This document shows, piece by piece, positions 932-13,822 of a DNA stretch of 15,224 nt. Within the stretch, counting starts at the first letter, position 1. Every line of letters starts with the position of its first letter. The DNA comes from a virus (Duplodnaviria; Heunggongvirae; Uroviricota; Caudoviricetes). The notes below the pieces were generated by a model, which saw only the letters and a list, made by a program, of their open reading frames with translations, searched no databases and was not told the DNA's origin. The position numbers and the translations under genes are program-made. The stretch lies in the IMG/VR virus record IMGVR_UViG_3300028048_000105; one strand, 5' to 3'.

Positions 932-2314
932 TTAAATAAGTTTCTGTGCGAGGGAAAGAAGTTCATCCCGATTGTTTGTTACCGTTTCGTTAATGACCGC
1001 TTCAAGCATCTGCTGCAGGATAGCACCGATCTTCTTTCCCGGTTTTAGGCCAAGTTCTTTCATCAGATCTTTTCCATTAACCGCCAGATCTTTCAAAGAA
1101 AAGCACGTCTCCTCAGCCACTAATTCATCACGAATTTTCAATACCTCTGGAATATCCGTAAACCAGTTTTTTGGCGGTTCTGACGGGAAAATGTGGTCAT
1201 CGAAATCTGCTTTCTTTAAAACAGCCCAGTCATCGAGGAAATCCGCTCCATGAGCAGCGATGAATCTTTTTACGGATTTTCTTGACGACGAAATTGATTT
1301 GTCGTGCGTTTTCACAAGCGCGACGATACGGTCATATTCTTCCGTCTTTAACCCCTTAAAATCCGTTTTCAGAACTCCCTTTGCAATCTCCGCGGATACT
1401 GCCGGATGCCCGTAAAAATGACCATGTCCGTTCTCATCTTCCATGTAGCTGTCCGGCTTTCCAATATCGTGAAGCAGTGCTGCCATCTTAATCTCAAATT
1501 TTGTGGTCTGGCACAGATCTGTTACAGCGAGCAGATGCTCGTACACATCATGTTTATGGTATCTGTTGTTCTGATTGAAATGTACGCACGACTTTAATTC
1601 CGGAATAAGGCAGGTAATTACATCTGCATATTCCACAAAAACTCTGGAAACCGGTTTATCCATACTCAGGATTTTCCTAAATTCCATAAGGATACGTTCT
1701 TTTGAAACGTTCTGCAGCATTCCAAGGTTCTCATGGATTGCTTCCGTCGTTTTCCCATCAAAATCTGCCCCATAGCGGATTGCAAATCGAAGTGCCCGGA
1801 CAATCCGAAGCCCGTCCTCCTGAAAGCGCTCGAAAGGGTCTCCAACACATTTAATGATGCCGTTCTGTAGGTCGCTGATGCCGTTGAATGGGTCAATGAC
1901 CGTTTCGGACTGCAGATCGTAAGCCATCGCATTGATCGTAAAGTCTCTTCTGGAAAGATCCTTATTTATCTCCTTCTCAAATACGATCTTACCCGGATGT
2001 CGGCCATCGGTATATTCTCTTTCTGACCGGAAGCTCGTAATTTCGTAGGAATTCCCTCTTACATCCGCAATGACTGTACCAAAGTCGATCCCCGGTGCAT
2101 GGAACGGAATCTGCCCGTCCTGCAAAATCTGAATGACCCGCGCCGGAACAGCATTTGTACATAAATCGTAGTCGTGTGGTGCTGTTCCGGCTACAGCATC
2201 CCTCACACAGCCCCCAACGGGATACAGTTGATATCCTGATGCGGTAAACACCTGATATAGCCGGTCAATATCTTCCAGCGTGCAGACATCCGGTATTAAT
2301 TCTTCTTTTTTCAT
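932..2314 (-). CDS. cca: Class II CCA-adding tRNA nucleotidyltransferase with HD domain (460 aa)
   Basis: Motifs VGGCVRD, HDYD (DxD), RRDFTINAMA, EDGLRIVRALRF; HD signature ALLHDIGKP; RBS GAAAGGAG. Confidence 0.92.
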   Translation of the reverse strand: MKKEELIPDVCTLEDIDRLYQVFTASGYQLYPVGGCVRDAVAGTAPHDYDLCTNAVPARVIQILQDGQIPFHAPGIDFGTVIADVRGNSYEITSFRSEREYTDGRHPGKIVFEKEINKDLSRRDFTINAMAYDLQSETVIDPFNGISDLQNGIIKCVGDPFERFQEDGLRIVRALRFAIRYGADFDGKTTEAIHENLGMLQNVSKERILMEFRKILSMDKPVSRVFVEYADVITCLIPELKSCVHFNQNNRYHKHDVYEHLLAVTDLCQTTKFEIKMAALLHDIGKPDSYMEDENGHGHFYGHPAVSAEIAKGVLKTDFKGLKTEEYDRIVALVKTHDKSISSSRKSVKRFIAAHGADFLDDWAVLKKADFDDHIFPSEPPKNWFTDIPEVLKIRDELVAEETCFSLKDLAVNGKDLMKELGLKPGKKIGAILQQMLEAVINETVTNNRDELLSLAQKLI

Positions 2315-2347
2315 ATTTTCTCTTTCTCCTTTCGCAAAAAAAATCTC

Positions 2348-2365
2348 TACATTTTTAATATGAAA
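2348..2365 (-). promoter_or_regulatory. Conserved cassette motif copy A (TTTCATATT-N5-TGTA)
   Basis: Minus strand tttcatatt-aaaaa-tgta, 34 bp upstream of the cca ATG, between a terminator and the RBS. Confidence 0.75.
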
Positions 2366-2368
2366 TAC

Positions 2369-2399
2369 AAAAAAAAGACACAGCCGAAGCCGTGCCTTT
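2369..2399 (-). terminator. Intrinsic terminator A (cUUCGg loop)
   Basis: Minus strand ggcacggc-ttcg-gctgtgtc followed by 8 T. Confidence 0.9.
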
Positions 2400-2438
2400 A
2401 TCCTGTTTATTTTCTTAATGAAATCATCGTTTCATAGG

Positions 2439-2624
2439 TTATTCGATTTCTTCGTGTATCATAAGAGAATATCCATCCCATAATTCTACATCAATAACCT
2501 TTGACAATTCTTTATACAATTCGGGATGATTTATCTTAATATTTTGAATAGCTGCTATAACTGGTTCGTTTCTATCACCCTTAATTGCAATTTTATTTAT
2601 TGCATTTACTTTACTTGCCTTCAT
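2439..2624 (-). CDS. Small hypothetical protein (61 aa), low-GC segment
   Basis: RBS GAGGT before the ATG; co-oriented with neighbours. Confidence 0.65.
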   Translation of the reverse strand: MKASKVNAINKIAIKGDRNEPVIAAIQNIKINHPELYKELSKVIDVELWDGYSLMIHEEIE

Positions 2625-2659
2625 ATTGTTTACCTCTTTCCGAGTAAATCCTCATTTCA

Positions 2660-2938
2660 TCAAATTTTATACTTTGCAACCGCATCTTCCCAATTGGCAA
2701 TGATACAGATTTTGTCAATTTCTTTAGCAATTTGCTCTATTTGTTTTGCCGTATTACCAAACGTATCTTTAAGACCTCGACCGAAAGCTAGTTGTATATC
2801 ATCCAAAGTCTTTTCCTTTTTTAATTTAAGATTGTATCGTCTGAGAAGATGTGGTAATTTTTCTTTATGGATAATTCCATAATGATTATCCCATTCCAAC
2901 CATAAGGATTCTGCAAATAATTCTTGTGATAATCGCAT
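2660..2938 (-). CDS. Hypothetical protein (92 aa), low-GC segment
   Basis: RBS GGAGG before the ATG. Confidence 0.75.
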   Translation of the reverse strand: MRLSQELFAESLWLEWDNHYGIIHKEKLPHLLRRYNLKLKKEKTLDDIQLAFGRGLKDTFGNTAKQIEQIAKEIDKICIIANWEDAVAKYKI

Positions 2939-2993
2939 ATTATATCCTCCATTCTTCCAAAGAAACTCTTGTTTTCTTACTTATACAAAAATT

Positions 2994-3041
2994 TCAAGAC
3001 CGAGGAGGTTTTTCGATGATTTTTATTTTCTTTTTTCGCAT
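2994..3041 (-). CDS. 15-aa micro-ORF MRKKKIKIIEKPPRS (peptide or gene stub)
   Basis: Follows motif copy B and a full GAAAGGAG RBS at the usual spacing; translated by hand, TGA at 2994-2996; below the ORF-track cutoff. Confidence 0.45.
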   Translation of the reverse strand: MRKKKIKIIEKPPRS

Positions 3042-3080
3042 AGTCTCTTTTTCTCCTTTCGCTTTTGAAATAGTTTTATT

Positions 3081-3098
3081 TACACTACTAATATGAAA
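3081..3098 (-). promoter_or_regulatory. Conserved cassette motif copy B
   Basis: Minus strand tttcatatt-agtag-tgta, 40 bp upstream of ATG 3041. Confidence 0.75.
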
Positions 3099-3137
3099 CA
3101 AAATTTCCGCACTAACCGCTTAAGATGGAAAGGCAAC

Positions 3138-3168
3138 AAAAAAAGAGAAACCCACAGGTTCCTCTTTT
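3138..3168 (-). terminator. Intrinsic terminator B
   Basis: Minus strand agaggaacc-tgtg-ggtttctct plus T-run, immediately after the stop at 3172. Confidence 0.85.
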
Positions 3169-3171
3169 CTC

Positions 3172-3755
3172 TTATTTCTTCGTAATTGCATCTCCGTTTT
3201 TCGTAATTAAATCTCCGATATTCGATATTACGGTACGGAACGAATATTCCTTGAAAATTTTCCGTGCTCTTTCCACGCGCTCTTTGGATACGCCCCCAAA
3301 TCCGTTCATGGAATGCAGGAAATTTTCCACATTGTCCTGATATTCACATTTATTGAAAGAAATAATCACAACAGTCGTAAGATCGTGTCCAAACGGATCC
3401 TTAACCGTTTCCGTTGTAAAATCCACAATCCCACACGCCGTACTTCCCGGGGTTTTTCTGTCAGCCAGAACTCCCCTGTCAGCTTTGCATCCGGAACGTA
3501 GTTCTGCACTTCCTCTTTTCCCATGCCCTCTCCTGTAAGGTAATAAGCATGGATTATGACAGGAAGACCGAGACTTTTCATATTCTCCATAACAAGTCCT
3601 GCCTGTGGAACTGCATTAACAGCATTCAGGATGTCTTCCGCAACGCAGATCCGCGGAACTGTCTCATCTTCTCCCGGACACCGCTGACGCGGCACCCGGG
3701 GAGCAAATTCGTCCACAATATCGAAAGAGATATGGATTCCATTAATTTCTGACAT
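3172..3755 (-). pseudogene. Probable single gene split by a frameshift near 3426-3435; N-terminal part ADP-ribosyltransferase-like (tentative)
   Basis: ORFs 3366-3755 and 3172-3426 overlap by 61 nt in different frames; the second begins at a GTG with no clear RBS; the first has RBS AAGGAG. Motifs HxS, FxPRxP, ED..PRIC, TGEFW suggest an ART-like fold. Confidence 0.55.
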
Positions 3756-3765
3756 ATCGTTCTCC

Positions 3766-5826
3766 TTATTTTATCATTTCCAGAAACTCGTCTTCCGAAA
3801 CAACTGGCACTCCAAGTTCTTTTGCTTTCTTGTTCTTTCCTGATGTACTCTCTACATCGTTGTTGATCAGGTACGAAGTGTTCTTTGACACCGAACCAGA
3901 AGTCTTTCCTCCAAGTTCCTCAATCTTTGTCACCAGTGCATCCCGGTTTGCGAAATGCTTCAACTTTCCGGTAATTACAAATGTTTTTCCGGCAAGGGGA
4001 GCTGCATCCACTGACGATTCCCTCGGAACCTGGATTTCCACTTCTTTAAGCAGGTGGCAAACCTCCAGATTAATAAACGGATATACCCGGTCATAGCAGT
4101 CTCCAAATGGGATGTATCTCAGATACTCATTCCCCCACCTCCAAAGGTTGTCGTTTAAAACTTCCCCGATACCTTCAATGTGGGTAAAGTCATGCCTTTG
4201 GAATACATCAACGAAAAACTTCTCAACATCTCCATTATATTCCTTGTCAAACAGTTTTGCCTGCCCTTTCCCGATATTAGGGATACCGAGGGAATGGATG
4301 AATGGAACAAAGGAAGTCATACGGCTTTTCTCAACGGAGTCGATCAGGTTGTCGTATGATTTTTGTCCAAAGCCTTCCATCGAAACGATCTGGTCCTTAT
4401 ACCGGTCAAGGTGGTATAGATCCGCAAACTCACGGATAAATCCATACTCGATAAATTTCTGCAGTGTCGCTTCCGACAATCCCTTGATGTTCATGCAATC
4501 ACGCTCTACGAAATGTACAAACTTCTTGACGTGTTTTGCAGGGCATTCCGGGTTCATACACATGGCAACCTCTACAAGTTTATTTTTGCCGGTAATTCTT
4601 GGCTCAGTTTCCTGTCCACAGCACGGGCAGTACACAGGATGAGATTCTGCGTAAGTAAGCTTGTTTCCCGGAGTAAGGTTAGCTGCCACCTGTGGGATGA
4701 TCTTATTGGCCTTGTAGACCGAGATCGTATCACCAACACGCAGTCGTTTCTCTTTTAATATAGAAACGTTGTGCAGCGATGCTCTTGTGACCTCAGTACC
4801 TTCCAGATGGACCGGATCAAACACTGCAACAGGATTGATAAGACCTGTCCTTGATGGACTCCATTCAATTTCTCGGAGTACAGTCTCGACTTCCTCATCC
4901 TTCCACTTCAGTGCATAACCTACAAGTGGATCTGGGTGATGCCCGGTTCCCAGCAAGGACTCGGCGTATCTGACATCATCAGATGCCACAACAAGACCAT
5001 CCACCGGATACTCAAACTGTGGTACCGCGTCGGAAAATCCGTTCATCACATCGATCAGATCACAGTTACTGTCTCCGTAAAGGCGGTATACTGTATCAAA
5101 TCCAAGTGAATCCAGATAATCTAGGCGTCCCATGAAGGTATCCTGATCCTCTGGCAACGGATCATCCATGTGGACAAGTTTGAACGCAAAGAACTGAATC
5201 TTCCGTTCTCTCATCTCTGCGCTGTCCTGCATAGTGACCGTAGCATTTGCAAGGTTACGTGGATTCGCATACCGGTCTTCCTCATTTGTAATCTCGTTAT
5301 TGATGCGCTCAAATTCGGAGTAAGACATAACAGCTTCTCCACGAGTTACCAGATGCCCCTTATACGGGATCTTCATTGGAATCCCGTTGATGTACGGAAC
5401 ATTATGGGTAATGTCCGAACCGACTTCGCCATTTCCTCGTGTCGCTGCACGAGTAAGTGTTCCATCATCATAAGTAAGAACGATGGTTAAACCATCTAGC
5501 TTCCATGTGACAACTGCCATACCAGCTGCTCTTTTCTTGAATATTTCCGGAAATACGGAAATATCCTTTGTCTTGTCCAGCGACCGTGCAGGAAATTCGT
5601 GTCTGACTTCCAGCAGCTTATCAACTTTGACCGGGGCACCGACTCCCTGTGTCGGTGAATTCGGGTAAACAATACCTTTTTCTTCCTCCATCTTCTTAAG
5701 TCTGTCAAACATGGCATCCCACTCATGATCAGACATAATTGTGTTTCCACCATTGTAATAAGCAGCAGATGCCTCATTCAATGCTTTGATTAATGTCTTC
5801 ATCTCTTTCTTTTTTGTCTCATTCAT
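3766..5826 (-). CDS. ligA: NAD-dependent DNA ligase (686 aa)
   Basis: Adenylation motif KLDG, RGNG..G..IT, RNLA, DGLV, WSPSRTG..NPVAVFDPV, C4 zinc finger (CPCC...C...C), HhH repeats, C-terminal BRCT (GKTFVITG...SVSKNTSYL). Start moved to ATG 5826, which has RBS GAAAGGAG. Confidence 0.96.
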   Translation of the reverse strand: MNETKKKEMKTLIKALNEASAAYYNGGNTIMSDHEWDAMFDRLKKMEEEKGIVYPNSPTQGVGAPVKVDKLLEVRHEFPARSLDKTKDISVFPEIFKKRAAGMAVVTWKLDGLTIVLTYDDGTLTRAATRGNGEVGSDITHNVPYINGIPMKIPYKGHLVTRGEAVMSYSEFERINNEITNEEDRYANPRNLANATVTMQDSAEMRERKIQFFAFKLVHMDDPLPEDQDTFMGRLDYLDSLGFDTVYRLYGDSNCDLIDVMNGFSDAVPQFEYPVDGLVVASDDVRYAESLLGTGHHPDPLVGYALKWKDEEVETVLREIEWSPSRTGLINPVAVFDPVHLEGTEVTRASLHNVSILKEKRLRVGDTISVYKANKIIPQVAANLTPGNKLTYAESHPVYCPCCGQETEPRITGKNKLVEVAMCMNPECPAKHVKKFVHFVERDCMNIKGLSEATLQKFIEYGFIREFADLYHLDRYKDQIVSMEGFGQKSYDNLIDSVEKSRMTSFVPFIHSLGIPNIGKGQAKLFDKEYNGDVEKFFVDVFQRHDFTHIEGIGEVLNDNLWRWGNEYLRYIPFGDCYDRVYPFINLEVCHLLKEVEIQVPRESSVDAAPLAGKTFVITGKLKHFANRDALVTKIEELGGKTSGSVSKNTSYLINNDVESTSGKNKKAKELGVPVVSEDEFLEMIK

Positions 5827-5861
5827 TATTTTTTCTCCTTTCATTGGCTTAAAATTTTGTT

Positions 5862-5879
5862 TACACCTACAATATGAAA
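5862..5879 (-). promoter_or_regulatory. Conserved cassette motif copy C
   Basis: Minus strand tttcatatt-gtagg-tgta, 36 bp upstream of the ligA ATG. Confidence 0.75.
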
Positions 5880-5882
5880 CAC

Positions 5883-5912
5883 AAAAAAAAGACACAGCCG
5901 AAGCCATGTCTT
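5883..5912 (-). terminator. Intrinsic terminator C (cUUCGg loop), near-copy of terminator A
   Basis: Minus strand gacatggc-ttcg-gctgtgtc followed by 8 T. Confidence 0.9.
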
Positions 5913-5926
5913 AAAAGATGAGTCCA

Positions 5927-6259: not shown

Positions 6260-6288
6260 ATATTTTCTCCTTTCGAATGCGTTTTGTT

Positions 6289-6306
6289 TACACCTTTAAT
6301 ATGAAA
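6289..6306 (-). promoter_or_regulatory. Conserved cassette motif copy D
   Basis: Minus strand tttcatatt-aaagg-tgta, 30 bp upstream of ATG 6259. Confidence 0.75.
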
Positions 6307-6418
6307 CAAAAAAAAGTTTTCCCATTGGACCCTCTTTTTCTCATTTTACAGTAACCATCTTCTTCCCACAACCACCAAATGTGTTTTTGTATTACATCTC
6401 TGCCATCCACGCACACAC

Positions 6419-6449
6419 AAAAAAGAAGAACCCCAAAAGGCTCTTCTTT
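6419..6449 (-). terminator. Intrinsic terminator D
   Basis: Minus strand agaagagcc-ttttgg-ggttcttct plus T-run, just after the stop at 6456. Confidence 0.85.
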
Positions 6450-6455
6450 CTCTTC

Positions 6456-7601
6456 TTACTTCTGCGTCGTTCCCCTCAACAGGATCGTTGTCTGCGGCGC
6501 CTGGTCACCCGTTTTCTGTAAACACTTACGGTGCCGCACGGACTCTTTGAATGGAACGAGCTTCCCGCTCTTCATGCGGCGCACACCGCCACGGGCAGTC
6601 CATACAGCTGTTTTGTAGTGGACGATGGAATTTGCGGATGGCAGTCTCGGCGGTTTTTGGGAAGTCATCTTGATACCGCCTACAGTACGAACAATTTTCT
6701 TGATCTCTTTCTCATCGCCTGCCTCTGTTTTCCTTGTTGCACCAGAAACGTTTCGTCCACTCCGGACAGCCTTTGGCTTGTTAAGCCACAACTCCTGATT
6801 GGAAAGCATGATAAAGTGGGTAAAGATCTTCGAAAGCTCATAGCAGCTGTTGCTTCCCTTTAAGGAAAGATTCTGCTTTTCGCCTGCCTCGGCATTCGCG
6901 ATGAATTTGTTCCAAATTTCTCTTTCCTTCTCTGACCACGAAAAACTGTCCATAGGCAAAAGACGGTATATTTTAGAATATTCCCGGCAGTTATTCAGCT
7001 GCACGTTGACACCGCCTGAAACGGTAACGTAGCGGATGGTATCTACGGTATACCGCTCCCGGACCTTGTCAGCATCCCAGAACTGGTAATGCACATCTGT
7101 ACTTACTCCCATCTGCCAGACACTGCCTATCCGGTTGTAATCGCAGATAAACACATCCATGGCACTCTCTGTCGTGTCAACCTTTGCAACCTTCCAGTAC
7201 ACATACCGGTCTGTATTAAGCTGCATGGCACCCTCTGAAAAACACGGGATATAGCAGTACCAGTAATTGCTATACAGGAATTCACTCGTAAGGCGTTTCC
7301 CGTCAATATCCGGGATACGGTTCTTCTCATCTGCTCTCCCTTTGTACTTTTCGTAGGTACACAGGCTGCGCAGATCAATCCGGTTTTTTGTCTTGATCTC
7401 TGCGCGGGACATCGCAATTCCTGCACGTACCAAAGCGTCGTTGTATTCCCAGAGCAGTTCCCGTCCGGTACTTGCCATATCCAGAAGCTGGGACTCATTT
7501 TGGATGCCAAATCGTTTTGCCACCATCGGATTAATCCCGACACCATCAAGCATGCCCGGGAATACCATACGTGAGGCGTCCGGATTCTTTTCATTCCTCA
7601 T
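6456..7601 (-). CDS. Hypothetical protein (381 aa) with basic C-terminal region
   Basis: Long ORF with RBS GAAAGGAG; C-terminal WTARGGVRRMKSGK is reminiscent of basic RGHxR-type segments in phage proteins; no family assigned. Confidence 0.85.
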   Translation of the reverse strand: MRNEKNPDASRMVFPGMLDGVGINPMVAKRFGIQNESQLLDMASTGRELLWEYNDALVRAGIAMSRAEIKTKNRIDLRSLCTYEKYKGRADEKNRIPDIDGKRLTSEFLYSNYWYCYIPCFSEGAMQLNTDRYVYWKVAKVDTTESAMDVFICDYNRIGSVWQMGVSTDVHYQFWDADKVRERYTVDTIRYVTVSGGVNVQLNNCREYSKIYRLLPMDSFSWSEKEREIWNKFIANAEAGEKQNLSLKGSNSCYELSKIFTHFIMLSNQELWLNKPKAVRSGRNVSGATRKTEAGDEKEIKKIVRTVGGIKMTSQKPPRLPSANSIVHYKTAVWTARGGVRRMKSGKLVPFKESVRHRKCLQKTGDQAPQTTILLRGTTQK

Positions 7602-7632
7602 ATTATCTCTCCTTTCGGTTCTGAAAAATTGT

Positions 7633-7652
7633 TTTCATAAGGAAATATGAGA
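7633..7652 (-). promoter_or_regulatory. Degenerate cassette motif copy E
   Basis: Minus strand tctcatatt-tcctta-tgaaa at the same position relative to terminator and RBS as the other copies. Confidence 0.55.
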
Positions 7653-7653
7653 C

Positions 7654-7688
7654 AAAAAAAAGAGCCCGCATTTCTGCGAACCCTTTTT
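7654..7688 (-). terminator. Intrinsic terminator E (GAAA loop)
   Basis: Minus strand agggttcgca-gaaa-tgcgggctct plus T-run. Confidence 0.85.
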
Positions 7689-7706: not shown

Positions 7707-8390
7707 TTACACGGATGGCTTCTTGAGTTCAAAAAGGAATTCAAGCGTCATGTCGCGTGTTAATGTTGCTTTCGTCAGCCGGAGTACATTGACCGGCACG
7801 CCGAATTTCTGGAATTTCTTCTGGGATGCAATGTACTCTGTCGCACAGTCAACATACTTTCGTGTATGTTCCCGCACATCCTTAAGCACATCTTCCTTCT
7901 TAACGTCCGTATACAGGACATACTCGAGACGGATAAAATCGAAGGTATTTGTATCCTTATTCCCAGCTGCTCTATCTATTCTCATTGGTCGAACGTGGCA
8001 GATATATGGAGGCGGCAGTTTCTTGGCAGTCTTTTCCTTTATTTTCCCCAAAATTACCGGAATTTCCTTGTAAAGAGAAACAATGTCATCCATTGTTGCC
8101 CCTTCCTGTATCCGGGATGCCACAGCAGCGAGCTGGTTGCGGTTAATTGGAAATCCACAGGAATCTTCAATCAGCGATGCCGTCCATCGGGTATCTCCCC
8201 AGAAACGTGGAAGTCTTTCCCCTAAATACCGAATAGCATAGTAACCTTCCATCAACTTGCAGGTTTCATAGTCTTCCTTAACTACACCAAGCTCCTGTAA
8301 AAGATCCCGGTTGGAAACAGTCTGTACGAGGGCAAGATCCGAATCATAGTATTTAACAATACCACCTTTGTGGTTCAAAAAATATCTCAT
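7707..8390 (-). CDS. Hypothetical protein (227 aa, MRYFLNHKGG...)
   Basis: GGAGG RBS overlapping the upstream TAG at 8401 places the start at ATG 8390; the 8501 start would overlap the upstream gene by about 100 nt. Confidence 0.8.
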   Translation of the reverse strand: MRYFLNHKGGIVKYYDSDLALVQTVSNRDLLQELGVVKEDYETCKLMEGYYAIRYLGERLPRFWGDTRWTASLIEDSCGFPINRNQLAAVASRIQEGATMDDIVSLYKEIPVILGKIKEKTAKKLPPPYICHVRPMRIDRAAGNKDTNTFDFIRLEYVLYTDVKKEDVLKDVREHTRKYVDCATEYIASQKKFQKFGVPVNVLRLTKATLTRDMTLEFLFELKKPSV

Positions 8391-8400
8391 CCAGAGCCTC

Positions 8401-9186
8401 CTATTTCTCGAAAAAGTGTCTTTCAAATACCATGGCAGTTTCATCCTGCCCAGGTACAGCATACACAATATTCTCCACAGAGGCAACACCAAAAATCTCA
8501 TCCATCAGTTCTGCAACCTGCCGTGGATCCTGTCCAAACACACCACAGCCAAAAGCACCGAGAATTAATGTATCGACACCCTGATCGGCTACGATATCCC
8601 GGATGAAAAGAAGCCGATTTATCAAGACTTTCTCATTTTCCTCATCGCTGACCTTCTGGTATTTCTGCGCGGCATACTTATTTGGCGCAGCACAGGTTAT
8701 GATGTCCGCTTTAACCGTACACTCATCGTTTTCAAAAACGACATCTGGCGTATATAATGCGCGGTCTGTATACAATGCCCGGTTTAAGAGCTTTTTATTT
8801 GGTTCGTAATATGCCCCACGGAAGCTGTTGAGCACCGGATACAGTGTTGAATCCATACAAAGGCATTCTTCCTGCGCCTTGCTTCCGGCAAGAAACATTC
8901 CGCCGGGATTTTTAAATGACGCAAAGTTCAACGCTGCCACCTTACCGGTATCTTTGCGGCGCTTAGCAGCAAAAATAGCTGCCACAGTGTCCGTTGGTAA
9001 AAAGAATTGCCGTGGGTTTCCGCTCTTATCTGATCTCTGCATCACACGGGCATCGTACATGACAGTATTTGCCACCTGCTCTCTGATCTCTTCTTTATAT
9101 TTCTCTGAAACATAAGCCAGATGATTCTTTGCAGCAGCTGCTCTTTCCTCTTTGTTCTTCCAATATCTTTCGTTTCTGTTTACCAT
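8401..9186 (-). CDS. TIGR02452-family protein (microbial PARG-like macrodomain, ADP-ribose glycohydrolase; 261 aa)
   Basis: ALNFASFKNPGGMFLAGSKAQEECLC carries the PGGxFxxGxxAQEE signature; ITCAAPN and LILGAFGCGVF are also typical. Start moved to ATG 9186 after RBS GAAAGGAG. Confidence 0.88.
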   Translation of the reverse strand: MVNRNERYWKNKEERAAAAKNHLAYVSEKYKEEIREQVANTVMYDARVMQRSDKSGNPRQFFLPTDTVAAIFAAKRRKDTGKVAALNFASFKNPGGMFLAGSKAQEECLCMDSTLYPVLNSFRGAYYEPNKKLLNRALYTDRALYTPDVVFENDECTVKADIITCAAPNKYAAQKYQKVSDEENEKVLINRLLFIRDIVADQGVDTLILGAFGCGVFGQDPRQVAELMDEIFGVASVENIVYAVPGQDETAMVFERHFFEK

Positions 9187-9191
9187 AATTG

Positions 9192-9240
9192 TTTTCTCCT
9201 TTCGAATTTGAAATATTTGTTTTACATCTTTAATATGAAA
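9192..9240. repeat. 49-bp direct repeat, copy 1 (RBS plus motif F)
   Basis: Matches 12499-12547 at 48/49 positions (ttttctcctttcgaatttgaaatatttgttttacatctYtaatatgaaa). Confidence 0.95.
9223..9240 (-). promoter_or_regulatory. Conserved cassette motif copy F
   Basis: Minus strand tttcatatt-aaaga-tgta, 37 bp upstream of ATG 9186. Confidence 0.75.
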
Positions 9241-9241
9241 T

Positions 9242-9270
9242 AAAAAAAGAAGAGCCGAAGCTCTCCTTTT
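9242..9270 (-). terminator. Intrinsic terminator F (cUUCGg loop)
   Basis: Minus strand aggagagc-ttcg-gctcttct plus T-run, directly after the stop at 9273. Confidence 0.9.
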
Positions 9271-9272
9271 CT

Positions 9273-9626
9273 TTATTCCCATCCTGCTACACCTGAGAAC
9301 GGATCATCATCATCTGCAGGCTGCGAAGCTCCGTCAGCATTCGACTGTGGCTGAGACTGCAATGTCTCATTGTACTTAGCAATAACCGCATCACTAATCT
9401 CCTTACGGAGTTCGGCAGTTGTCGGGAAGGCAATATCATAATATTTCTCATTGCCATCCTTATCTTTACCTTTACGGTTTGGGAGGGAAATAAATAATCC
9501 CTTCTTCCCCTCAACGACACGGATATCATTGACTGCAAATACCCCGTCTAAGTTAATTGAAGCATATGCCTTTGTTGATCCATTACCGGATTTCACCGGT
9601 ATAATTCTTACTTCTGATACCTTCAT
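9273..9626 (-). CDS. spoVG: SpoVG-family nucleic-acid-binding protein with acidic tail (117 aa)
   Basis: MKVSEVRI...KAYASINLDGVFAVNDIRVVEGKKGLFISLP...YYDIAFPTTAELRKEISDAV parallels SpoVG along its length; extra tail DDDDPFSGVAGWE. Start moved to ATG 9626 after RBS GAAAGGAG. Confidence 0.85.
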   Translation of the reverse strand: MKVSEVRIIPVKSGNGSTKAYASINLDGVFAVNDIRVVEGKKGLFISLPNRKGKDKDGNEKYYDIAFPTTAELRKEISDAVIAKYNETLQSQPQSNADGASQPADDDDPFSGVAGWE

Positions 9627-9665
9627 AATTTCATTCTCCTTTCGATAATAAAAAATAATGTTTTG

Positions 9666-9684
9666 TACATTTATCAATATGAAA
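9666..9684 (-). promoter_or_regulatory. Cassette motif copy G (N6 spacer)
   Basis: Minus strand tttcatatt-gataaa-tgta, 40 bp upstream of ATG 9626. Confidence 0.7.
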
Positions 9685-9725
9685 TGAAAAAAAGTTTGTG
9701 ATGAATGGTTTTTGTGAGAAAATTG

Positions 9726-9768
9726 AAAAAATAAGAAGAAAGGCCAAAAAAAATGATCTTTCTTCTTA
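9726..9768 (-). terminator. Intrinsic terminator G after recA
   Basis: 15-nt arms taagaagaaagatca / tggcctttcttctta (one mismatch, one GU) followed by a T-run on the minus strand. Confidence 0.85.
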
Positions 9769-9779
9769 CTGCTCACCGC

Positions 9780-10874
9780 TTATGCTTCCATTTCTTCCGA
9801 TTCAAGGGTTCCGTCTGCTGTACCCGCTTCTGCCGGAGCACTGTCATCCGCCATTTCTGTATCCATATTCTTTCCAAGAATTTCATTCTTAATCGCTTCT
9901 GCAATATCCGGATGCTCCTTCAGATACTGTTTTGCTCCATTTGATCCATCACGTCCCTGGCACTGCTTTCCATCCGGCATGGTAAACCACGCACCACGTT
10001 TGGAAATGATTTCACGGTCTGTTCCAAGATCCACGATTTCCCCATAAATATCAATGCCCTGCCCGAACACGATCTCCGTCATGGCTTCCTTAAATGGCGG
10101 GGCAACTTTGTTCTTCACAACTTTAATCTTCACGCGGTTGGAAACCGCCTGTCCCTCTTTCTTTAATGTTTCCGTTTTTCTCACATCCAGGCGGACAGAA
10201 GCATAAAACTTGAGCGCACGTCCACCGGCCGTTGTCTCTGGATTTCCAAACATAATGCCAACTTTTTCTCTCAACTGATTGATAAACACCACGGTACACT
10301 TGGTATTCGCAATCACGCTTGTCAGTTTCCGCAATGCCTGGCTCATCAAACGCGCCTGCAGTCCGACATGCGAATCCCCCATATCCCCGTCAATCTCTGC
10401 TTTTGGCGTCAGGGCGGCCACAGAGTCAACAACCACAATATCCACTGCGCCGGAACGAACCATTGTTTCTGTAATTTCCAGTGCCTGTTCCCCACAGTCC
10501 GGCTGGGAAACGTAAAGATCGTCAATATCAACCCCGATATTTCTTGCATAGGAAGGATCAAGCGCATGCTCCGCATCAATGAAGGCAGCTACTCCTCCGT
10601 TTTTCTGCACCTCTGCTACCATATGCAGTGCCATCGTTGTCTTTCCACCGGACTCTGGACCATAAATCTCAATAATACGTCCCTTTGGTACTCCCCCGAC
10701 TCCAAGTGCAAGGTCAAGGGACAGGGAACCGGTCGAGATTGTTTCAACTGTCATATGGGTGTTCTCCCCCAGCTTCATGACGGCGCCTGCACCATATTGC
10801 TTATTTATATGGTCAATTGCTGCCTCAAGTGCCGCAATCTTGCTGTTCTTTTCTTCTTTTACTTCTTTTGCCAT
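9780..10874 (-). CDS. recA: RecA recombinase (364 aa)
   Basis: Full-length RecA motifs: [16 protein letters not shown] (Walker A), [62 protein letters not shown]; RBS AAGGAG. Confidence 0.98.
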
Positions 10875-10896
10875 CTGTCATATTCTCCTTTTTTAT

Positions 10897-10930
10897 CAGA
10901 CTGGCAGAAACGCCAGCCTGTTTTATTTTT
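10897..10930 (+). terminator. Hairpin upstream of the recA RBS, with T-tract on the + (antisense) strand
   Basis: cagactggc-agaaac-gccagcctg followed by ttttattttt on +; on the coding strand the stem is followed by ataaaaagg, with no U-tract. Confidence 0.55.
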
Positions 10931-10936
10931 CTCTTC

Positions 10937-11755
10937 CTAGTTTTTCCCCCATCCGGCAAGCCCGTTTGTTCCCGGAATGAACGGATCTGATTCCTCACTG
11001 TCGTCATTAAAAATTGCAAATGGATCCTTATCGTCTGCCGAATTACCACCGGATGGCGCCGCAGGCTGCACCGGGGCAGGTGCCTGGTTATTCCTTCCTG
11101 TAAACGGATCATCCTGCCCCGTGGGTTGTTGTGGCAATGGAGACTGCGCCTGCTGTCCGGACTCTGCATGGGTTTCCCCCGGAGCATCAAGGGAATCGTT
11201 TGCATCGAAATCCCCGTTCTGGATGTCCTTCTTATAATAGGAGCTGCGCTTTGCTTCGTTTACATAGAATTCATAAATAAGGTTGCTGTAATACGTCTTT
11301 GGTGTCACCGGAACCAGCCCCATTAAAAGGCGGAACAAAAATGCCATCTTTTTTAATGAATGCGGGGTAACAGCGACCATCTTATTCTGCTTTTTTGATG
11401 TATTCTGTACCTGGAAAACAACTCCCGCACGCCCTTTGCCAATATTAAAATGACGGCATCCATTATTACCTGCTGTCCACTTATACGCGGATGGATATGG
11501 GCTGTTATCTTCCATGATTCTCTTCTGTGCAACACCATTATCAATTTCCTTACAAAACTGCCGGAATTCATCAATATCTAAGTAAAAATCAACGAAATCC
11601 TTTCCTCCGGAATTCAGGGCAACGATGGAAATTTTTACTTTCCCGATTGTCGGAGCCGGTGTAACGTTTACAAAATTTTTCTTGATATTATATTCCTTTA
11701 AGATAGAACCTTCACGGATCATCTCAAGATCCGATTTATACTTTTTTTCTTCCAT
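10937..11755 (-). CDS. Hypothetical protein (272 aa) with long Pro/Gln/Asp-rich tail ending DPF...AGW; possible ssDNA-binding or RecA accessory protein
   Basis: RBS AGGAAAGG; first gene of the recA unit; apparently globular N-terminal ~170 aa, then a low-complexity acidic tail. Confidence 0.8.
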   Translation of the reverse strand: MEEKKYKSDLEMIREGSILKEYNIKKNFVNVTPAPTIGKVKISIVALNSGGKDFVDFYLDIDEFRQFCKEIDNGVAQKRIMEDNSPYPSAYKWTAGNNGCRHFNIGKGRAGVVFQVQNTSKKQNKMVAVTPHSLKKMAFLFRLLMGLVPVTPKTYYSNLIYEFYVNEAKRSSYYKKDIQNGDFDANDSLDAPGETHAESGQQAQSPLPQQPTGQDDPFTGRNNQAPAPVQPAAPSGGNSADDKDPFAIFNDDSEESDPFIPGTNGLAGWGKN

Positions 11756-11803
11756 ATCTTTCTTTTCCTTTCCTTAAAAATTTGTCGTTTTATATCTTCA
11801 CCT

Positions 11804-11857
11804 TACATATTGCGTCATATAAAAATTCGTCAAAGAAATCTGGAAAATTTTTGAAAA
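11804..11857 (-). promoter_or_regulatory. 54-bp class II regulatory repeat, copy 1 (before the recA unit)
   Basis: Reverse complement matches 13832-13885 at 45/54 ungapped positions, including 17/17 for atatgacgcaatatgta; contains TTGACG. Confidence 0.8.
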
Positions 11858-11863
11858 ATATGC

Positions 11864-11899
11864 AAAAAAAAAGAGCCCGCAAGTATTACGAACTCTTTT
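11864..11899 (-). terminator. Intrinsic terminator H, related to terminator E
   Basis: Minus strand agagttcgtaa-tac-ttgcgggctct plus T-run; shares the gcgggctctttttttt arm with terminator E. Confidence 0.85.
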
Positions 11900-11914
11900 G
11901 ATTTTTCTTATTTA

Positions 11915-12175
11915 TTAGGACAAAATGATGTATGAATCTTCTTCCATACTCCCCTCTTCCGGCTTTCCACCTTCCCAGGTAATATCATTTTCCTGTAAAC
12001 TTTCTTCGTCTGCAGGATAACCACATGGACATGACCAACAGTAGCATTTTCCCTGTCCATTTTCGACTTCTTTTTGTGCTTTATGTTCACATCCATATCC
12101 ATTATTAACATCCGCGTTCCCATTGAAATATGGACACTCTGAAACAAAATTATCAAAATTCTTTGCAATTCTCAT
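11915..12175 (-). CDS. Small Cys-rich hypothetical protein (86 aa)
   Basis: RBS GGGAGG precedes ATG 12175 (MRIAKNF); ECPYF...GCEH...CYCWSCPCG suggests metal binding. Confidence 0.75.
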   Translation of the reverse strand: MRIAKNFDNFVSECPYFNGNADVNNGYGCEHKAQKEVENGQGKCYCWSCPCGYPADEESLQENDITWEGGKPEEGSMEEDSYIILS

Positions 12176-12189
12176 GTATATACCTCCCA

Positions 12190-12492
12190 TTAATCCTGAT
12201 TTTGAAAGAAATCAACCTTAAGGGTCGGATCTTCTTGCATCTCATCGCCCCAGATGATCGCACGAAGTTTTTCGTCCTCCACTGACTTTTCAAAAAGAAT
12301 TCTCGGAAGAGACAATGCCTCTGGATTACCATTCTTGTCCGGAATAAATTCGATGTCGATCCCTGGGTAATTTGGGTCAATACATGCAGTTGCACGGAGA
12401 ATTCCTCCCGGCACATTAACATCGATATACTGTGGACGTCCCTGAGATTTTACTTTCTCATTGATTTTCTCATTTTCTCTTAATTTTTCCAT
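12190..12492 (-). CDS. Hypothetical protein (100 aa)
   Basis: RBS GAAAGGAG following motif copy I. Confidence 0.8.
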   Translation of the reverse strand: MEKLRENEKINEKVKSQGRPQYIDVNVPGGILRATACIDPNYPGIDIEFIPDKNGNPEALSLPRILFEKSVEDEKLRAIIWGDEMQEDPTLKVDFFQNQD

Positions 12493-12498
12493 GTCTTT

Positions 12499-12547
12499 TT
12501 TTCTCCTTTCGAATTTGAAATATTTGTTTTACATCTCTAATATGAAA
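12499..12547. repeat. 49-bp direct repeat, copy 2 (RBS plus motif I)
   Basis: 48/49 identical to 9192-9240. Confidence 0.95.
12530..12547 (-). promoter_or_regulatory. Conserved cassette motif copy I
   Basis: Minus strand tttcatatt-agaga-tgta, 38 bp upstream of ATG 12492. Confidence 0.75.
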
Positions 12548-12548
12548 C

Positions 12549-12579
12549 AAAAAAAAGAAGAACCCGAAGGTTCCTCTTT
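12549..12579 (-). terminator. Intrinsic terminator I (cUUCGg loop)
   Basis: Minus strand agaggaacc-ttcg-ggttcttct plus T-run. Confidence 0.9.
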
Positions 12580-12591
12580 CTCATTCCTGTT

Positions 12592-13098
12592 TTAAACGCG
12601 CTTCACAATCTTCCGGCCACACATCGGACAATATTTAATGCCCTCATCGAACTGGTCCGTTCCAAAATCGTAGCCACAGCATTCGGTGACGCCATCAACT
12701 ATTTTTGTTGTTTCCGGTTCACCACTTTCCTGATTAGCTTCACCATTTAAGATTTCGTAAACCTTTTTGAGCTCCGTTAAGGCATATTCCTCACCAAATG
12801 AAGAAATATGGTCAACTTTTCTTCGGAGTTTTAAAATCAGCTCTTTTTTCTGGATAAATTCCTGTGCAGCCTGTTTTGAAGGAAACAGACAGGAAGTGTA
12901 TCCACAGGAAGCATGGTCTGTAAGATACTCCCCACCTCCGGGAAGCTCGGCATATTGCCGTCCGAATCCATCCATCGTGACATACTTTCTGCCAACTTTA
13001 ACTACTTTTCCCTCAACAATTTCCTTTGTATTTCCGAAATGTTCAATGGACCACGCAGATTCTCCAACGTGGAAATCTTTAATTGTAACATTACTCAT
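12592..13098 (-). CDS. Hypothetical protein (168 aa): N-terminal small beta-barrel-like region plus C-terminal zinc ribbon
   Basis: RBS GGAGGTG precedes ATG 13098, overlapping the upstream stop; GKVVKVGRKYVT at the N-terminus; ECCG...YCPMCG at the C-terminus. Confidence 0.78.
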   Translation of the reverse strand: MSNVTIKDFHVGESAWSIEHFGNTKEIVEGKVVKVGRKYVTMDGFGRQYAELPGGGEYLTDHASCGYTSCLFPSKQAAQEFIQKKELILKLRRKVDHISSFGEEYALTELKKVYEILNGEANQESGEPETTKIVDGVTECCGYDFGTDQFDEGIKYCPMCGRKIVKRV

Positions 13099-13771
13099 GA
13101 TCCTCACCTCCATCCTTACGCTCGTAAGTTGGAAGCCCCGGAACGGGTTCCGCATCCGCATCAAGGCAGAGCCAAGTACATCCCTGTTCTGCAGTATATT
13201 CCATTGCCTGATACAGATCAGCCGGGATCTTATCATTCATCGTGTCCGGATCAACAAATATAAACCATCCGTATCCATCCTTCTCGAATACAGGCGGAAG
13301 ATTATTTGTAACTTCAATCTCCTTTCCACAGTGCAGACATTTTGGAGGGAACGGGTTTTTCGAAACGAGGTCGCATGTCTGATCCAACAGATCTACTGTT
13401 TTCGGAGAAATATGCATGGTGCTGATTGTAAGCATCTGCGTAAATTCCCCTGATACCAGCTGGAGTCTGCCTATCGGGAAATATTCTTCCTGATTTCCCA
13501 TCTTTCCCGCGAAACAATCCTCAATGGTATACTCAGGGTTGACATCCTTCACAATATCCGCCACAACGGACGCAATGCTGTCCATCAGCAAACTATACGT
13601 CATACCGTAAAGGCAGGCGTTATTTTCATCCAATGTCTGGTTTTCATCCGGAACATGAATGCCGTAGCGGTCAAGCACGTTCTCAACCATCTCCAGAATG
13701 TCTCCGGCAGCATCACGGACCGCAACTTTACCGTGCAGCACGTATGGACTTCTCATTTCTTCCTTTTTCAT
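13091..13771 (-). CDS. Hypothetical protein (226 aa) with DUF5983-like C-terminal domain
   Basis: LTISTMHI...VFEKDGYGWFIFV...IPADL...GCTWLCLDADAEPVPGLPTY resembles DUF5983 as recalled (not searched); RBS GAAAGGAG; starts MKKEEM. Confidence 0.7.
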   Translation of the reverse strand: MKKEEMRSPYVLHGKVAVRDAAGDILEMVENVLDRYGIHVPDENQTLDENNACLYGMTYSLLMDSIASVVADIVKDVNPEYTIEDCFAGKMGNQEEYFPIGRLQLVSGEFTQMLTISTMHISPKTVDLLDQTCDLVSKNPFPPKCLHCGKEIEVTNNLPPVFEKDGYGWFIFVDPDTMNDKIPADLYQAMEYTAEQGCTWLCLDADAEPVPGLPTYERKDGGEDHE

Positions 13772-13804
13772 ATTTTTTCTCCTTTCGTTTTTGAAAATTA
13801 CTTT

Positions 13805-13822
13805 TACATCTTTAATATGAAA
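13805..13822 (-). promoter_or_regulatory. Conserved cassette motif copy J (head of the leftward array)
   Basis: Minus strand tttcatatt-aaaga-tgta, 34 bp upstream of ATG 13771; no terminator upstream; back-to-back with the class II repeat. Confidence 0.75.

What the first reader, a model, noticed from the sequence alone, without database searches (positions are those of the whole stretch)
932..13822. Array of self-contained gene cassettes built on one repeated terminator-motif-RBS module
Seen: ten co-oriented units of 1-3 unrelated genes. Nine junctions or heads carry T-tract + TTTCATATT-N5-TGTA (2348, 3081, 5862, 6289, 9223, 12530, 13805 exact; 9666 N6; 7633 degenerate), lying 30-40 bp before an ATG with a GAAAGGAG RBS. 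In five cases (A, C, E, F, I) the upstream terminator's U-tract is fused directly to the motif. Known precedent: PeSL promoter-stem-loop cassettes that mediate modular shuffling in RB49-like T4 phages. Inference: this is a plug-and-play accessory array in which repeated junctions give every gene identical co-regulation and provide homology for cassette gain, loss and reordering, possibly via the element's own RecA and LigA. I do not recognise a described equivalent in Clostridia elements.
Basis: partly seen in the sequence, partly recalled or inferred. Interest (0 to 1): 0.88.

Follow-up and report, generated by a model that had tools for sequence, protein, structure and literature searches.

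The report
Repeated terminator-promoter modules on gut megaplasmid
A row of unrelated genes on a very common, probably conjugative, giant plasmid-like element of human-gut Lachnospiraceae is cut into self-contained units by one repeated terminator, promoter-like motif and ribosome-site junction, and relatives have gained or lost whole genes by recombination inside that junction, as in the PeSL cassettes of T4-type phages.

Summary
There are seven exact and two degenerate copies of TTTCATATT-N5-TGTA, all on the minus strand and each 29-40 nt before a strong RBS and ATG. Five are fused to the T-tract of an intrinsic terminator.

The array is not a special structure. The same motif heads at least 55 different genes, on both strands, across a family of 100-390 kb human-gut elements. 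These best fit the conjugative 'Hodor' megaplasmids. Lower-GC relatives also carry the motif.

It is not a host promoter. Only 12 stretches match in 185,579 species genomes. In a cultured Lachnospiraceae isolate, the copies with a T-tract and RBS lie on four element contigs only.

No sigma-70 -35/-10 pair fits. I read it as an element-specific promoter without a -35 box (inferred, no RNA data).

Among 90-96% relatives, 6 of 14 indels are whole cassettes flanked by two module copies. The window's single copies are chimeras of those two, so crossovers fell inside the module. Other indels lie elsewhere, and gene order is fixed.

A role for RecA or LigA was not tested. This scan has reported similar junction modules on other DNA before. 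I class it as a new variant of the PeSL kind.

The parts
13772..13835 (-). Module 1: T-rich tract, motif 13805-13822 and RBS, heading the DUF5983 gene. It lies in a divergent intergenic region with no terminator upstream.
13091..13771 (-). 226-aa protein with a DUF5983 C-terminal domain
12592..13098 (-). 168-aa protein with a Phage_ProQ_C_like domain; it overlaps the previous gene and shares its unit
12493..12582 (-). Module 2: terminator 12551-12582 fused to motif 12530-12547, then RBS
11915..12492 (-). Unit of two small unknown genes (100 aa at 12190-12492; 86 aa at 11915-12175). Some relatives carry an extra 112-aa gene between them.
11756..11899 (-). Junction without the motif: terminator 11869-11899, then a different promoter-like repeat (TTGACGAAT-N4-ATATGACGCAATATGTA, starting at 11833 and running to lower coordinates)
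9780..11755 (-). Unit of a 272-aa unknown gene (10937-11755) and RecA (9780-10874)
9627..9700 (-). Module 4: T-tract, degenerate motif 9666-9684 (spacer of 6) and RBS, heading SpoVG
9273..9626 (-). SpoVG-family protein, 117 aa
9187..9273 (-). Module 5: terminator 9242-9273 fused to motif 9223-9240, then RBS. It shares a 38-nt exact stretch with module 2.
7707..9186 (-). Unit of a microbial-type PARG (8401-9186) and a 227-aa unknown gene (7707-8390)
7602..7688 (-). Module 6: terminator 7657-7688 fused to degenerate motif 7634-7652, then RBS
6456..7601 (-). 381-aa unknown protein. Relatives of 88-96% identity lie on contigs of up to 386 kb. Some relatives carry an IS200/605 insertion just downstream of it.
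6260..6320 (-). Module 7: T-tract, motif 6289-6306 and RBS, heading the 110-aa gene (5927-6259)
5827..5912 (-). Module 8: terminator 5889-5912 fused to motif 5862-5879, then RBS. In relatives a 482-aa plus 169-aa cassette sits here between two module copies, and the window's copy is a chimera of the two.
3366..5826 (-). Unit of NAD-dependent DNA ligase LigA (3766-5826) and a 129-aa gene (3366-3755)
2994..3171 (-). Module 9: terminator 3138-3171, a 40-nt spacer, motif 3081-3098, RBS and a conserved 15-codon uORF (2994-3041). In relatives a 175-aa cassette, or 142-aa plus 173-aa cassettes, sit here between module copies. The window's copy is a chimera.
2439..2938 (-). Replaceable cassette content: a 92-aa gene (2660-2938) and a 61-aa gene (2439-2624). 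Relatives carry 92+98 aa or 105+82 aa here instead.
2315..2399 (-). Module 10: terminator 2374-2399 fused to motif 2348-2365, then RBS
932..2314 (-). CCA-adding enzyme / poly(A) polymerase family protein with an HD domain, 460 aa

Best explanation
The junction is a composite expression module. It consists of an intrinsic terminator whose T-tract runs into a short promoter without a -35 box, followed about 20 nt later by a consensus Firmicutes RBS. The promoter core is T-tract + TTTCATATT-N5-TGTAAA. I read CATATT as a -10-like element and the G of TGTA as lying near the transcription start.

The promoter is private to a family of very large (100-390 kb) human-gut Lachnospiraceae elements. These are most likely conjugative megaplasmids of the 'Hodor' type. 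The motif heads many of their short transcription units, so each 1-3-gene unit is insulated and driven by the same signal. It is probably read through an element-specified factor, or by host RNA polymerase with an element factor.

The modules are dispersed direct repeats with 14-139 bp of shared sequence, so homologous recombination between them has inserted or deleted whole cassettes.

Shown: the motif, its position, the terminators, its restriction to the element, and crossovers inside modules.
Inferred: promoter activity, the start site, and the dedicated factor.
Not tested: which recombinase acts, and whether cassette exchange is a selected function.
For: Motif statistics and fixed geometry.

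Terminators.

Unbiased instances: all 33 unique motif copies in loci retrieved by protein, not by motif, are followed by an RBS and a start codon.

Spread: at least 55 distinct gene heads carry the motif. The T-tract, TTTCATATT, TGTAAA and the RBS are conserved, while the N5 spacer and the leader vary.

Promoter inside the module: two copies sit back to back, 35 bp apart, in a divergent intergenic region (L010 20714 on the minus strand and 20749 on the plus strand). Module 1 sits in a divergent region of about 210 bp. Little room is left for another promoter.

No sigma-70 fit: no -35/-10 match lies at the modules on the coding strand.

Element specificity: only 12 stretches match in 185,579 species genomes. 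In isolate MGYG-HGUT-00136, 8 of 11 exact copies, and 18 of 25 copies with at most 1 mismatch, lie on 4 contigs totalling 77 kb. The 3 exact chromosomal copies lack the T-tract and RBS.

Conservation: between the window and that isolate's element, the matches on the element contigs are almost all to the modules and the uORF leader. Lower-GC relatives keep the architecture.

Recombination: the cassettes {482+169 aa}, {175 aa}, {142 aa} and three others are flanked by two module copies where the other genome has one. Homology overlaps by 20-139 bp. The window's single copies are left/right chimeras. The 105-aa and 82-aa cassette genes are 99-100% identical in all carriers, including L004 and L012, although neighbouring backbone stretches of the L004-type and L010-type loci are only about 92-94% identical.
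Against: There are no transcript data, so promoter function and the start site are inferred.

No sigma factor or RNA polymerase gene was found on the element sequence I sampled. Sampling was partial and biased towards motif-bearing regions.

CATATT keeps the critical A-11 and T-7 positions, so host sigma-A could suffice.

Seven or eight of the 14 indels are not module-bounded. Exact identity between most window modules is only 14-38 nt, which is short for RecA-type recombination.

Selection for intact expression units could enrich module-bounded variants without any special mechanism.
Confidence: 0.6

Rival explanations
1. The motif is mainly an operator for a global, element-encoded repressor or activator, like the KorA/KorB operators spread over IncP plasmid promoters. 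It would overlap a weak host sigma-A promoter whose -10 is CATATT. The repeats then reflect a plasmid-wide regulon, and recombination at them is incidental.
For: The motif has a fixed position in many promoters of one replicon, on both strands. Its conservation is far stricter than a -10 box needs. The element is probably a conjugative plasmid, where such regulons are known from established knowledge of RK2. CATATT keeps A-11 and T-7.
Against: The motif is not palindromic. No -35 element lies at the right distance, because that position falls in the variable terminator stems. No candidate regulator was identified.
Confidence: 0.2
2. The modules are ordinary dispersed promoter-terminator junctions with no role in cassette exchange beyond what any repeat gives. 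The cassette polymorphism reflects general mosaicism plus selection for variants that keep intact expression units.
For: About half of the indels are not module-bounded. These include an IS200/605 insertion, an LRR gene with 13-bp microhomology, in-gene indels and the 112-aa gene. Gene order is fixed. Short identity tracts separate most modules.
Against: Six of 14 indels have both ends in register inside modules with chimeric single copies. Modules cover only about 6-8% of the DNA.
Confidence: 0.25
3. The motif acts at the RNA level, as a processing site or translational operator in the 5' leader of polycistronic transcripts, rather than as a promoter.
For: It lies at a constant distance from the RBS. 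It lies just after hairpins that could serve as 3' stabilisers. The element encodes RNA-binding-type proteins, a ProQ_C-like protein and SpoVG.
Against: The motif heads genes in divergent intergenic regions, and in back-to-back pairs 35 bp apart, where no upstream co-directional transcript exists. The hairpins are followed by 7-9 T, which is typical of true terminators. There is no Rfam match.
Confidence: 0.07
4. The module is a site for a dedicated site-specific recombinase, in an integron-like or attC-like cassette system.
For: Cassettes of 1-2 genes are bounded by a repeated junction. Tyrosine recombinase genes exist somewhere on the element.
Against: The overlapping homology at the module-flanked indels ranges from 20 to 139 bp, and in the two aligned cases the switch between left-copy and right-copy sequence lies in a stretch of tens of identical bases rather than at a demonstrable fixed point. 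The motif is not an imperfect palindrome. Each cassette has its own promoter. No integrase lies next to the array. The motif always sits at a fixed distance from an RBS, including in front of core genes.
Confidence: 0.03

Closest known systems
PeSL (promoter-early stem-loop) cassettes of T4-type phages (Arbiol et al. 2010, PMC2839356; Comeau et al. 2014, PMC4122927)
   Same: Both are composite units of about 100 bp with a terminator stem-loop, promoter, Shine-Dalgarno sequence and start codon, repeated between small and mostly unknown genes. In both, indels between close relatives are flanked by two copies where the other genome has one. This is the same comparative signature as RB49 ORF192.
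   Different: The promoter here is not the sigma-70 consensus: there is no -35 box, and the core is TTTCATATT-N5-TGTAAA. The terminator sits strictly upstream, with its T-tract fused to the motif. The replicon is a plasmid-like giant element of Lachnospiraceae, not a T4-like phage. The motif also heads core-type genes across the replicon. Mini-circles have not been shown.
'Hodor' conjugative megaplasmids of the human gut (Yuan et al. 2026 preprint, PMC12934698)
   Same: The size range matches (contigs up to 386 kb against 211-389 kb). Both come from the human gut and are very prevalent. Both carry a Rep_3 initiator, a VirD4-type coupling protein, an HD-domain protein, a ParM-like protein and frequent TnpB. 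GC is about 42-44%.
   Different: Identity to a named Hodor genome could not be checked because no sequences or supplements are held. A word search of that paper found no occurrence of 'promoter', 'terminator' or 'intergenic'. No sortase or ParA/ParB was seen in my partial sample.
Kil-kor regulon of IncP plasmids (KorA/KorB operators in many promoters of one plasmid)
   Same: One short sequence recurs at a fixed place in many promoters of a single large plasmid and gives replicon-wide co-regulation.
   Different: Kor operators are palindromes bound by known repressors and sit in ordinary sigma-70 promoters. Here the motif is asymmetric, no regulator is known, and no sigma-70 promoter is evident.
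Integron gene cassettes (attC sites)
   Same: Both are arrays of unrelated, co-oriented small genes that differ between relatives by whole cassettes.
   Different: Integron cassettes lack their own promoters and are moved by IntI at structured attC sites. Here each cassette has its own promoter and terminator, and exchange looks like homologous recombination.

Membership tests
PeSL cassettes (T4-type phages) | Strong promoter matching the sigma-70 -35/-10 consensus | tested here: not met
   No coding-strand sigma-70-type match lies at any module. The position where a -35 box would lie falls in the variable terminator stems.
PeSL cassettes (T4-type phages) | Stable stem-loop acting as a terminator or attenuator within the repeated unit | tested here: met
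   Seven hairpins of 10-15 bp with T-tracts; five are fused to the motif.
PeSL cassettes (T4-type phages) | The unit ends with a Shine-Dalgarno sequence and the start codon of the downstream gene | tested here: met
   GAAAGGAG and ATG lie 47-58 nt from the motif start in the window and in relatives.
PeSL cassettes (T4-type phages) | Indels between close relatives are flanked by copies of the unit (one copy against two) | tested here: met
   Six of 14 indels fit, with chimeric single copies.
PeSL cassettes (T4-type phages) | Preferential location in hyperplastic regions next to ORFans | tested here: inconclusive
   Many heads are ORFans, but RecA-, LigA-, CCA enzyme- and NadE-type genes are also headed by the motif. 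Whole-genome maps were not available.
PeSL cassettes (T4-type phages) | Excised mini-circles carrying one chimeric unit | not testable with these tools
   This needs PCR or long reads.
PeSL cassettes (T4-type phages) | Resident in a T4-like myovirus genome | tested here: not met
   No phage structural genes were found in 47 of the larger proteins encoded in the sampled element loci. Plasmid and conjugation genes were found instead.
Hodor conjugative megaplasmids | Replicon of 211-389 kb from the human gut with a Rep_3 initiator | tested here: met
   Relatives lie on contigs of up to 385,989 bp. The records are human-gut metagenomes. Rep3_N occurs among the sampled proteins.
Hodor conjugative megaplasmids | VirD4/VirB4 type IV secretion, an HD-superfamily (MOBH-like) relaxase and ParM/StbA | tested here: inconclusive
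   T4SS-DNA_transf/TraG-D_C, HD/HD_5 and ALP_N were found on the isolate's element contigs. VirB4 was not looked for, and the link to the window's own lineage rests on about 78% identical shared genes.
Hodor conjugative megaplasmids | At least 90% nucleotide identity to a G1 or G2 reference genome | not testable with these tools
   No Hodor sequences or supplementary tables are held.
Integron / attC cassette array | Adjacent IntI integrase, cassettes without promoters, palindromic attC | tested here: not met
   No integrase lies in the window or its flanks. Every cassette has its own promoter-like motif, and the motif is not palindromic.
Intrinsic (Rho-independent) terminators | GC-rich hairpin followed by a U-tract at the 3' end of a gene | tested here: met
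   This is a sequence test only; there are no 3'-end data.

The most novel reading that the evidence does not exclude
This megaplasmid family runs a private transcription system. An element-encoded specificity factor (a sigma-like or other protein) would read a -35-less promoter, T-tract + TTTCATATT-N5-TGTAAA, that is absent from host chromosomes and conserved across lineages of 33-45% GC. Fusing this promoter to terminators gives portable, insulated single-gene expression units. The plasmids would then exchange these units by homologous recombination, which amounts to an integron-like gene-collecting system without an integrase in one of the commonest mobile elements of the human gut.
Probability: 0.3. 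Interest if true: 0.72.

Novelty: new variant of a known kind. Interest (0 to 1): 0.52.

Why it matters
The element family is among the most widespread large mobile elements in human-gut metagenomes. A neighbouring 102-aa protein is indexed in 4,491 blocks of the collection. The word search of the only description I found turned up nothing on how its genes are expressed.

A single, easily recognised promoter-like motif would let one map its transcription units in any metagenome. It also gives a handle for finding the factor that reads it. It could supply portable expression parts for Lachnospiraceae, which are hard to engineer.

The module-bounded cassette differences extend the PeSL idea from T4-like phages to a plasmid-like element of Gram-positive anaerobes. 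A cultured carrier, isolate MGYG-HGUT-00136, makes both ideas testable at the bench.

Tried and rejected
- **Whole genome of the window.** None is held. The window is essentially a whole 15,240-bp metagenome contig.
- **Megablast of the window** against the phage and plasmid collections gave no match.
- **IMG/VR.** A protein search, a motif search and a profile search gave nothing or one weak hit.
- **GTDB species genomes.** A search with the 381-aa protein gave nothing.
- **DnaE-type polymerase of the element.** The best hits in known phages and plasmids are only 32-37% identical.
- **Inocle giant elements** were considered and rejected on GC (24-32% against about 43%).
- **Jumbo phage.** Not supported: 47 of the larger proteins gave no structural PHROGs, while plasmid and conjugation genes are present.
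- **Sporulation-sigma readings.** TCATATT resembles a sigma-E -35 box, and CATA resembles the -10 boxes of sigma-K or sigma-G. I considered these from memory and dropped them because the partner element is not conserved at the required spacing.
- **Sigma-54-like spacing** was also considered and dropped.
- **Literature search for the motif string** returned nothing relevant.
- **Rfam and tRNA scans of the window** found nothing.
- **Sigma70_r2 search of the isolate's genome.** It found 19 genes, none on the four element contigs. One lies on contig C30, which shows no similarity to the element.
- **Rep3_N** was not found in the isolate's genome.
- **Supplements of the Hodor paper** are not held.

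Full report
**1. The observation**

The window is essentially one whole 15,240-bp ENA gut-metagenome contig. No surrounding genome is held.

Between 932 and 13822 all genes lie on the minus strand. In transcription order they are:
- a DUF5983-domain protein and a ProQ_C-like protein;
- two small unknown genes;
- a 272-aa unknown gene and RecA;
- SpoVG;
- a microbial-type PARG and a 227-aa unknown gene;
- a 381-aa unknown gene;
- a 110-aa unknown gene;
- NAD-dependent ligase LigA and a 129-aa gene;
- a 15-codon uORF followed by 92-aa and 61-aa genes;
- a CCA-adding enzyme.

TTTCATATT-N5-TGTA occurs exactly seven times, always on the minus strand. With up to two mismatches there are 8 matches against 0.9 expected, and none of 200 shuffles reaches 8. 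Two more heads carry degenerate copies, at 9666-9684 (spacer of 6) and 7634-7652.

Each copy starts 47-58 nt before an ATG that is preceded by GAAAGGAG or a near variant. Seven strong minus-strand intrinsic terminators are present, and five have their T-tract abutting the motif. The 272-aa/RecA unit has a different promoter-like sequence.

**2. What the replicon is**

The 381-aa protein has relatives of 88-96% identity on contigs of up to 385,989 bp. A neighbouring 102-aa protein is indexed in 4,491 blocks of the assembly collection, so the element is very common in human-gut samples.

There is no near match in the phage or plasmid collections or in IMG/VR. A DnaE-type polymerase of the element is at most 37% identical to anything there.

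Proteins encoded in the sampled element loci include:
- DnaE, NrdD, UvrD- and RecD2-type helicases, NadE, and a 3,382-aa protein with a glycine-rich domain;
- NAPRTase, PARP, RecJ, PhoH, integrases, group II intron reverse transcriptase, Rep3_N and Mob_Pre;
- an LPD1-domain protein and TnpB/IS200-605;
- no phage structural protein among the 47 larger proteins tested.

Only 12 stretches in 185,579 GTDB species genomes match the motif plus RBS. Three of them lie in one cultured isolate, Lachnospiraceae bacterium MGYG-HGUT-00136. Its four motif-bearing contigs total 77 kb. The parts that align are 95-99% identical to metagenome loci of the element cluster, and about 78% identical to genes on the same contig as a window-type region. 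They encode a VirD4-type coupling protein, HD-domain proteins, an actin-like ParM-type protein, RuvB and TnpB.

This fits the 'Hodor' conjugative megaplasmids described in a 2026 preprint: 211-389 kb, human gut, Rep_3, a MOBH-like HD relaxase, ParM/StbA and frequent TnpB (PMC12934698). I could not compare sequences. I put membership at roughly 70%. A word search of that paper found no occurrence of 'promoter', 'terminator' or 'intergenic'.

**3. The motif is replicon-wide and element-specific**

In loci fetched by protein identity, which are unbiased for the motif, all 33 unique copies are followed by an RBS and a start codon. Copies also occur outside the array and on the other strand. One back-to-back divergent pair lies 35 bp apart, at L010 20714 (minus strand) and 20749 (plus strand).

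Most of them cluster with the element. Together with the loci fetched by protein they give at least 55 different gene heads.

The logo shows conservation of an upstream T-tract, TTTCATATT, a purine before TGTA, TGTAAA(C) and the RBS. The N5 spacer and the leader are free to vary.

Contigs of 33-37% GC carry the same terminator, T-tract, yTyCATATT-N5-TGTAA and RBS architecture several times each. They also share gene themes: PARP, NAPRTase, NadE, UvrD and LPD1. The module is therefore older than the window's lineage.

In the isolate's 3.9-Mb genome:
- 8 of 11 exact copies lie on the four element contigs, as do 18 of 25 copies with at most one mismatch;
- the three exact chromosomal copies lack the T-tract and RBS and look like chance matches inside coding sequence.

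When the window is compared with the isolate's genome, the matches on the element contigs are almost all to the modules and the uORF leader. The other matches are the chromosomal recA and a short repeat at the window's end.

**4. How it most likely works**

Promoter function is inferred, not shown. The arguments are:
- fixed orientation and distance to the RBS;
- presence at heads in divergent regions, and in back-to-back pairs, where no upstream transcript could supply the gene;
- placement just after bona fide terminators.

No sigma-70-type -35/-10 pair fits on the coding strand. The place where a -35 box would lie falls in the variable terminator stems.

CATATT keeps the A-11 and T-7 positions of a -10 box. 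That puts the G of TGTA about where transcription would start. This follows from general knowledge of promoters and is not a measurement.

The strict conservation of 13 or more bases, together with their absence from the host chromosome, suggests a dedicated factor. I found no sigma factor or polymerase gene on the sampled parts, so this step remains open. A global repressor operator overlapping a weak sigma-A promoter is the main rival.

**5. Cassette exchange**

Relatives of 90-96% identity keep the same gene order but differ by whole cassettes. I found 14 distinct insertions or deletions among element loci.

Six of the 14 are flanked by two module copies where the other genome has a single copy. 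Homology overlaps by 20-139 bp:
- {482+169 aa} before LigA;
- {175 aa} after LigA's unit;
- {142 aa} after LigA's unit;
- a 1,171-bp variant at the same place;
- two events elsewhere on the element (L107/L070 and L119/L038).

Three-way alignments show that the window's single modules at 5862 and 3081 are chimeras. Their upstream part matches the left copy and their downstream part matches the right copy, with the crossover in the shared terminator-to-motif stretch. This is the signature used to define PeSL-mediated shuffling (PMC2839356).

The {92+61}, {92+98} and {105+82} contents replace one another. The left breakpoint lies about 160 nt after the motif, beyond the shared uORF leader. The right breakpoint lies 71 nt before the next motif, at the terminator.

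The 105-aa and 82-aa cassette genes are 99-100% identical in all carriers, including L004 and L012, although neighbouring backbone stretches of the L004-type and L010-type loci are only about 92-94% identical. This fits recent exchange.

Against a special mechanism:
- The other indels are not module-bounded. They are a 112-aa gene inside an operon, an LRR gene with 13-bp microhomology, three in-gene indels, an event bounded by an unrelated 83-bp repeat, and one bounded by a 75-bp repeat at a gene's 3' end. An IS200/605 insertion is bounded by a duplicated terminator.
- I saw no reordering. The only hint is one partial second copy of a cassette gene at another site.
- Exact identity between most window modules is only 14-38 nt.
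- Nothing links the element's RecA or LigA to these events.

**6. Comparison and verdict**

The system works like PeSLs but fails two defining features: the sigma-70 consensus promoter and a T4-like phage genome. I therefore file it as a new variant of that kind, not a member. It is not integron-like, because there is no integrase next to the array, no attC-type palindrome, and each cassette has its own promoter.

This scan has already reported comparable terminator-promoter-RBS junction arrays on other DNA, so the general phenomenon is recurrent. What is specific here is threefold:
- the non-canonical, element-private motif, conserved across a deep family of very prevalent gut megaplasmid-like elements;
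- its physical fusion to terminators;
- the availability of a cultured carrier for tests.

Interest is moderate, 0.52.

Noticed in passing
window 2994-3041 (-); also L010:17380, L031, L054, L140 and G001 contig C49 near 8716: A conserved 15-codon uORF, M[RGKQ][KR][KE]K[ICT]KII[EG]KPP[RPQ][SD]-stop, plus about 60 nt of conserved leader, follows the motif in front of at least five different downstream genes. The ending, KPP plus two residues before the stop, suggests a ribosome-stalling leader peptide that controls the downstream gene.
   Followed up: partly
window 11833 (-) and 13856 (+); also L055: A second repeated promoter-like sequence, TTGACGAAT-N4-ATATGACGCAATATGTA, heads the 272-aa/RecA unit. 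It also heads the plus-strand genes divergent from module 1. At the plus-strand site the 37 nt downstream of it are conserved between the window and L055. There is no Rfam match.
   Followed up: partly
G001 (Lachnospiraceae bacterium isolate MGYG-HGUT-00136), contigs C28, C33, C49, C78: A cultured gut isolate carries 77 kb of contigs. Their aligned parts are 95-99% identical to metagenome loci of this element family. They include VirD4-type, HD-domain, ParM-like and TnpB genes. This points to a Lachnospiraceae host for these Hodor-like elements. No Rep3_N was found in that assembly.
   Followed up: partly
window 8401-9186 (PARG); L065, L067 (NadE, NAPRTase); L041 (PARP); element loci with NrtR/NUDIX: The element family carries a marked NAD and ADP-ribose theme: PARG, PARP, glutamine-dependent NAD synthetase, nicotinate phosphoribosyltransferase and NrtR-like Nudix proteins. 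These could replenish NAD or reverse ADP-ribosylation, perhaps against host defences.
   Followed up: no
L004:11252-14407 and L019:12464-14952: IS200/IS605-type insertions (Y1 transposase plus TnpB-like gene) sit next to terminator hairpins of modules in some relatives. One is bounded by a 42-bp duplicated terminator.
   Followed up: partly
P0057 (369 aa, contig of 107,939 bp): One relative has a protein that joins the end of the 381-aa protein (94% identity over 38% of it) to the HD and tRNA_NucTran2_2 part of the CCA enzyme. This implies a large deletion that fuses two array genes, or an assembly chimera.
   Followed up: no
element loci, e.g. L125:1506-3278: DUF5983-domain proteins form the largest paralogue and orthologue cluster in the sampled loci (27 members, lengths up to 590 aa). 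This suggests a multigene family on the element.
   Followed up: no
window + strand 9208-9236, 12515-12543, 13791-13818, 3065-3094: The reverse complement of several modules scores as a sigma-70-like promoter (TTGAAA, 16-18 nt, TAATAT) pointing back into the upstream terminator. It may be a coincidence of AT-rich sequence or a source of short antisense transcripts.
   Followed up: no
L015-L017 (346-kb contig, GC 54%): A 31%-identical homologue of the 381-aa protein lies on another very large contig with SNF2, UDG, UvrD, ClpB-like and SLH-domain genes. That contig lacks the motif entirely.
   Followed up: no
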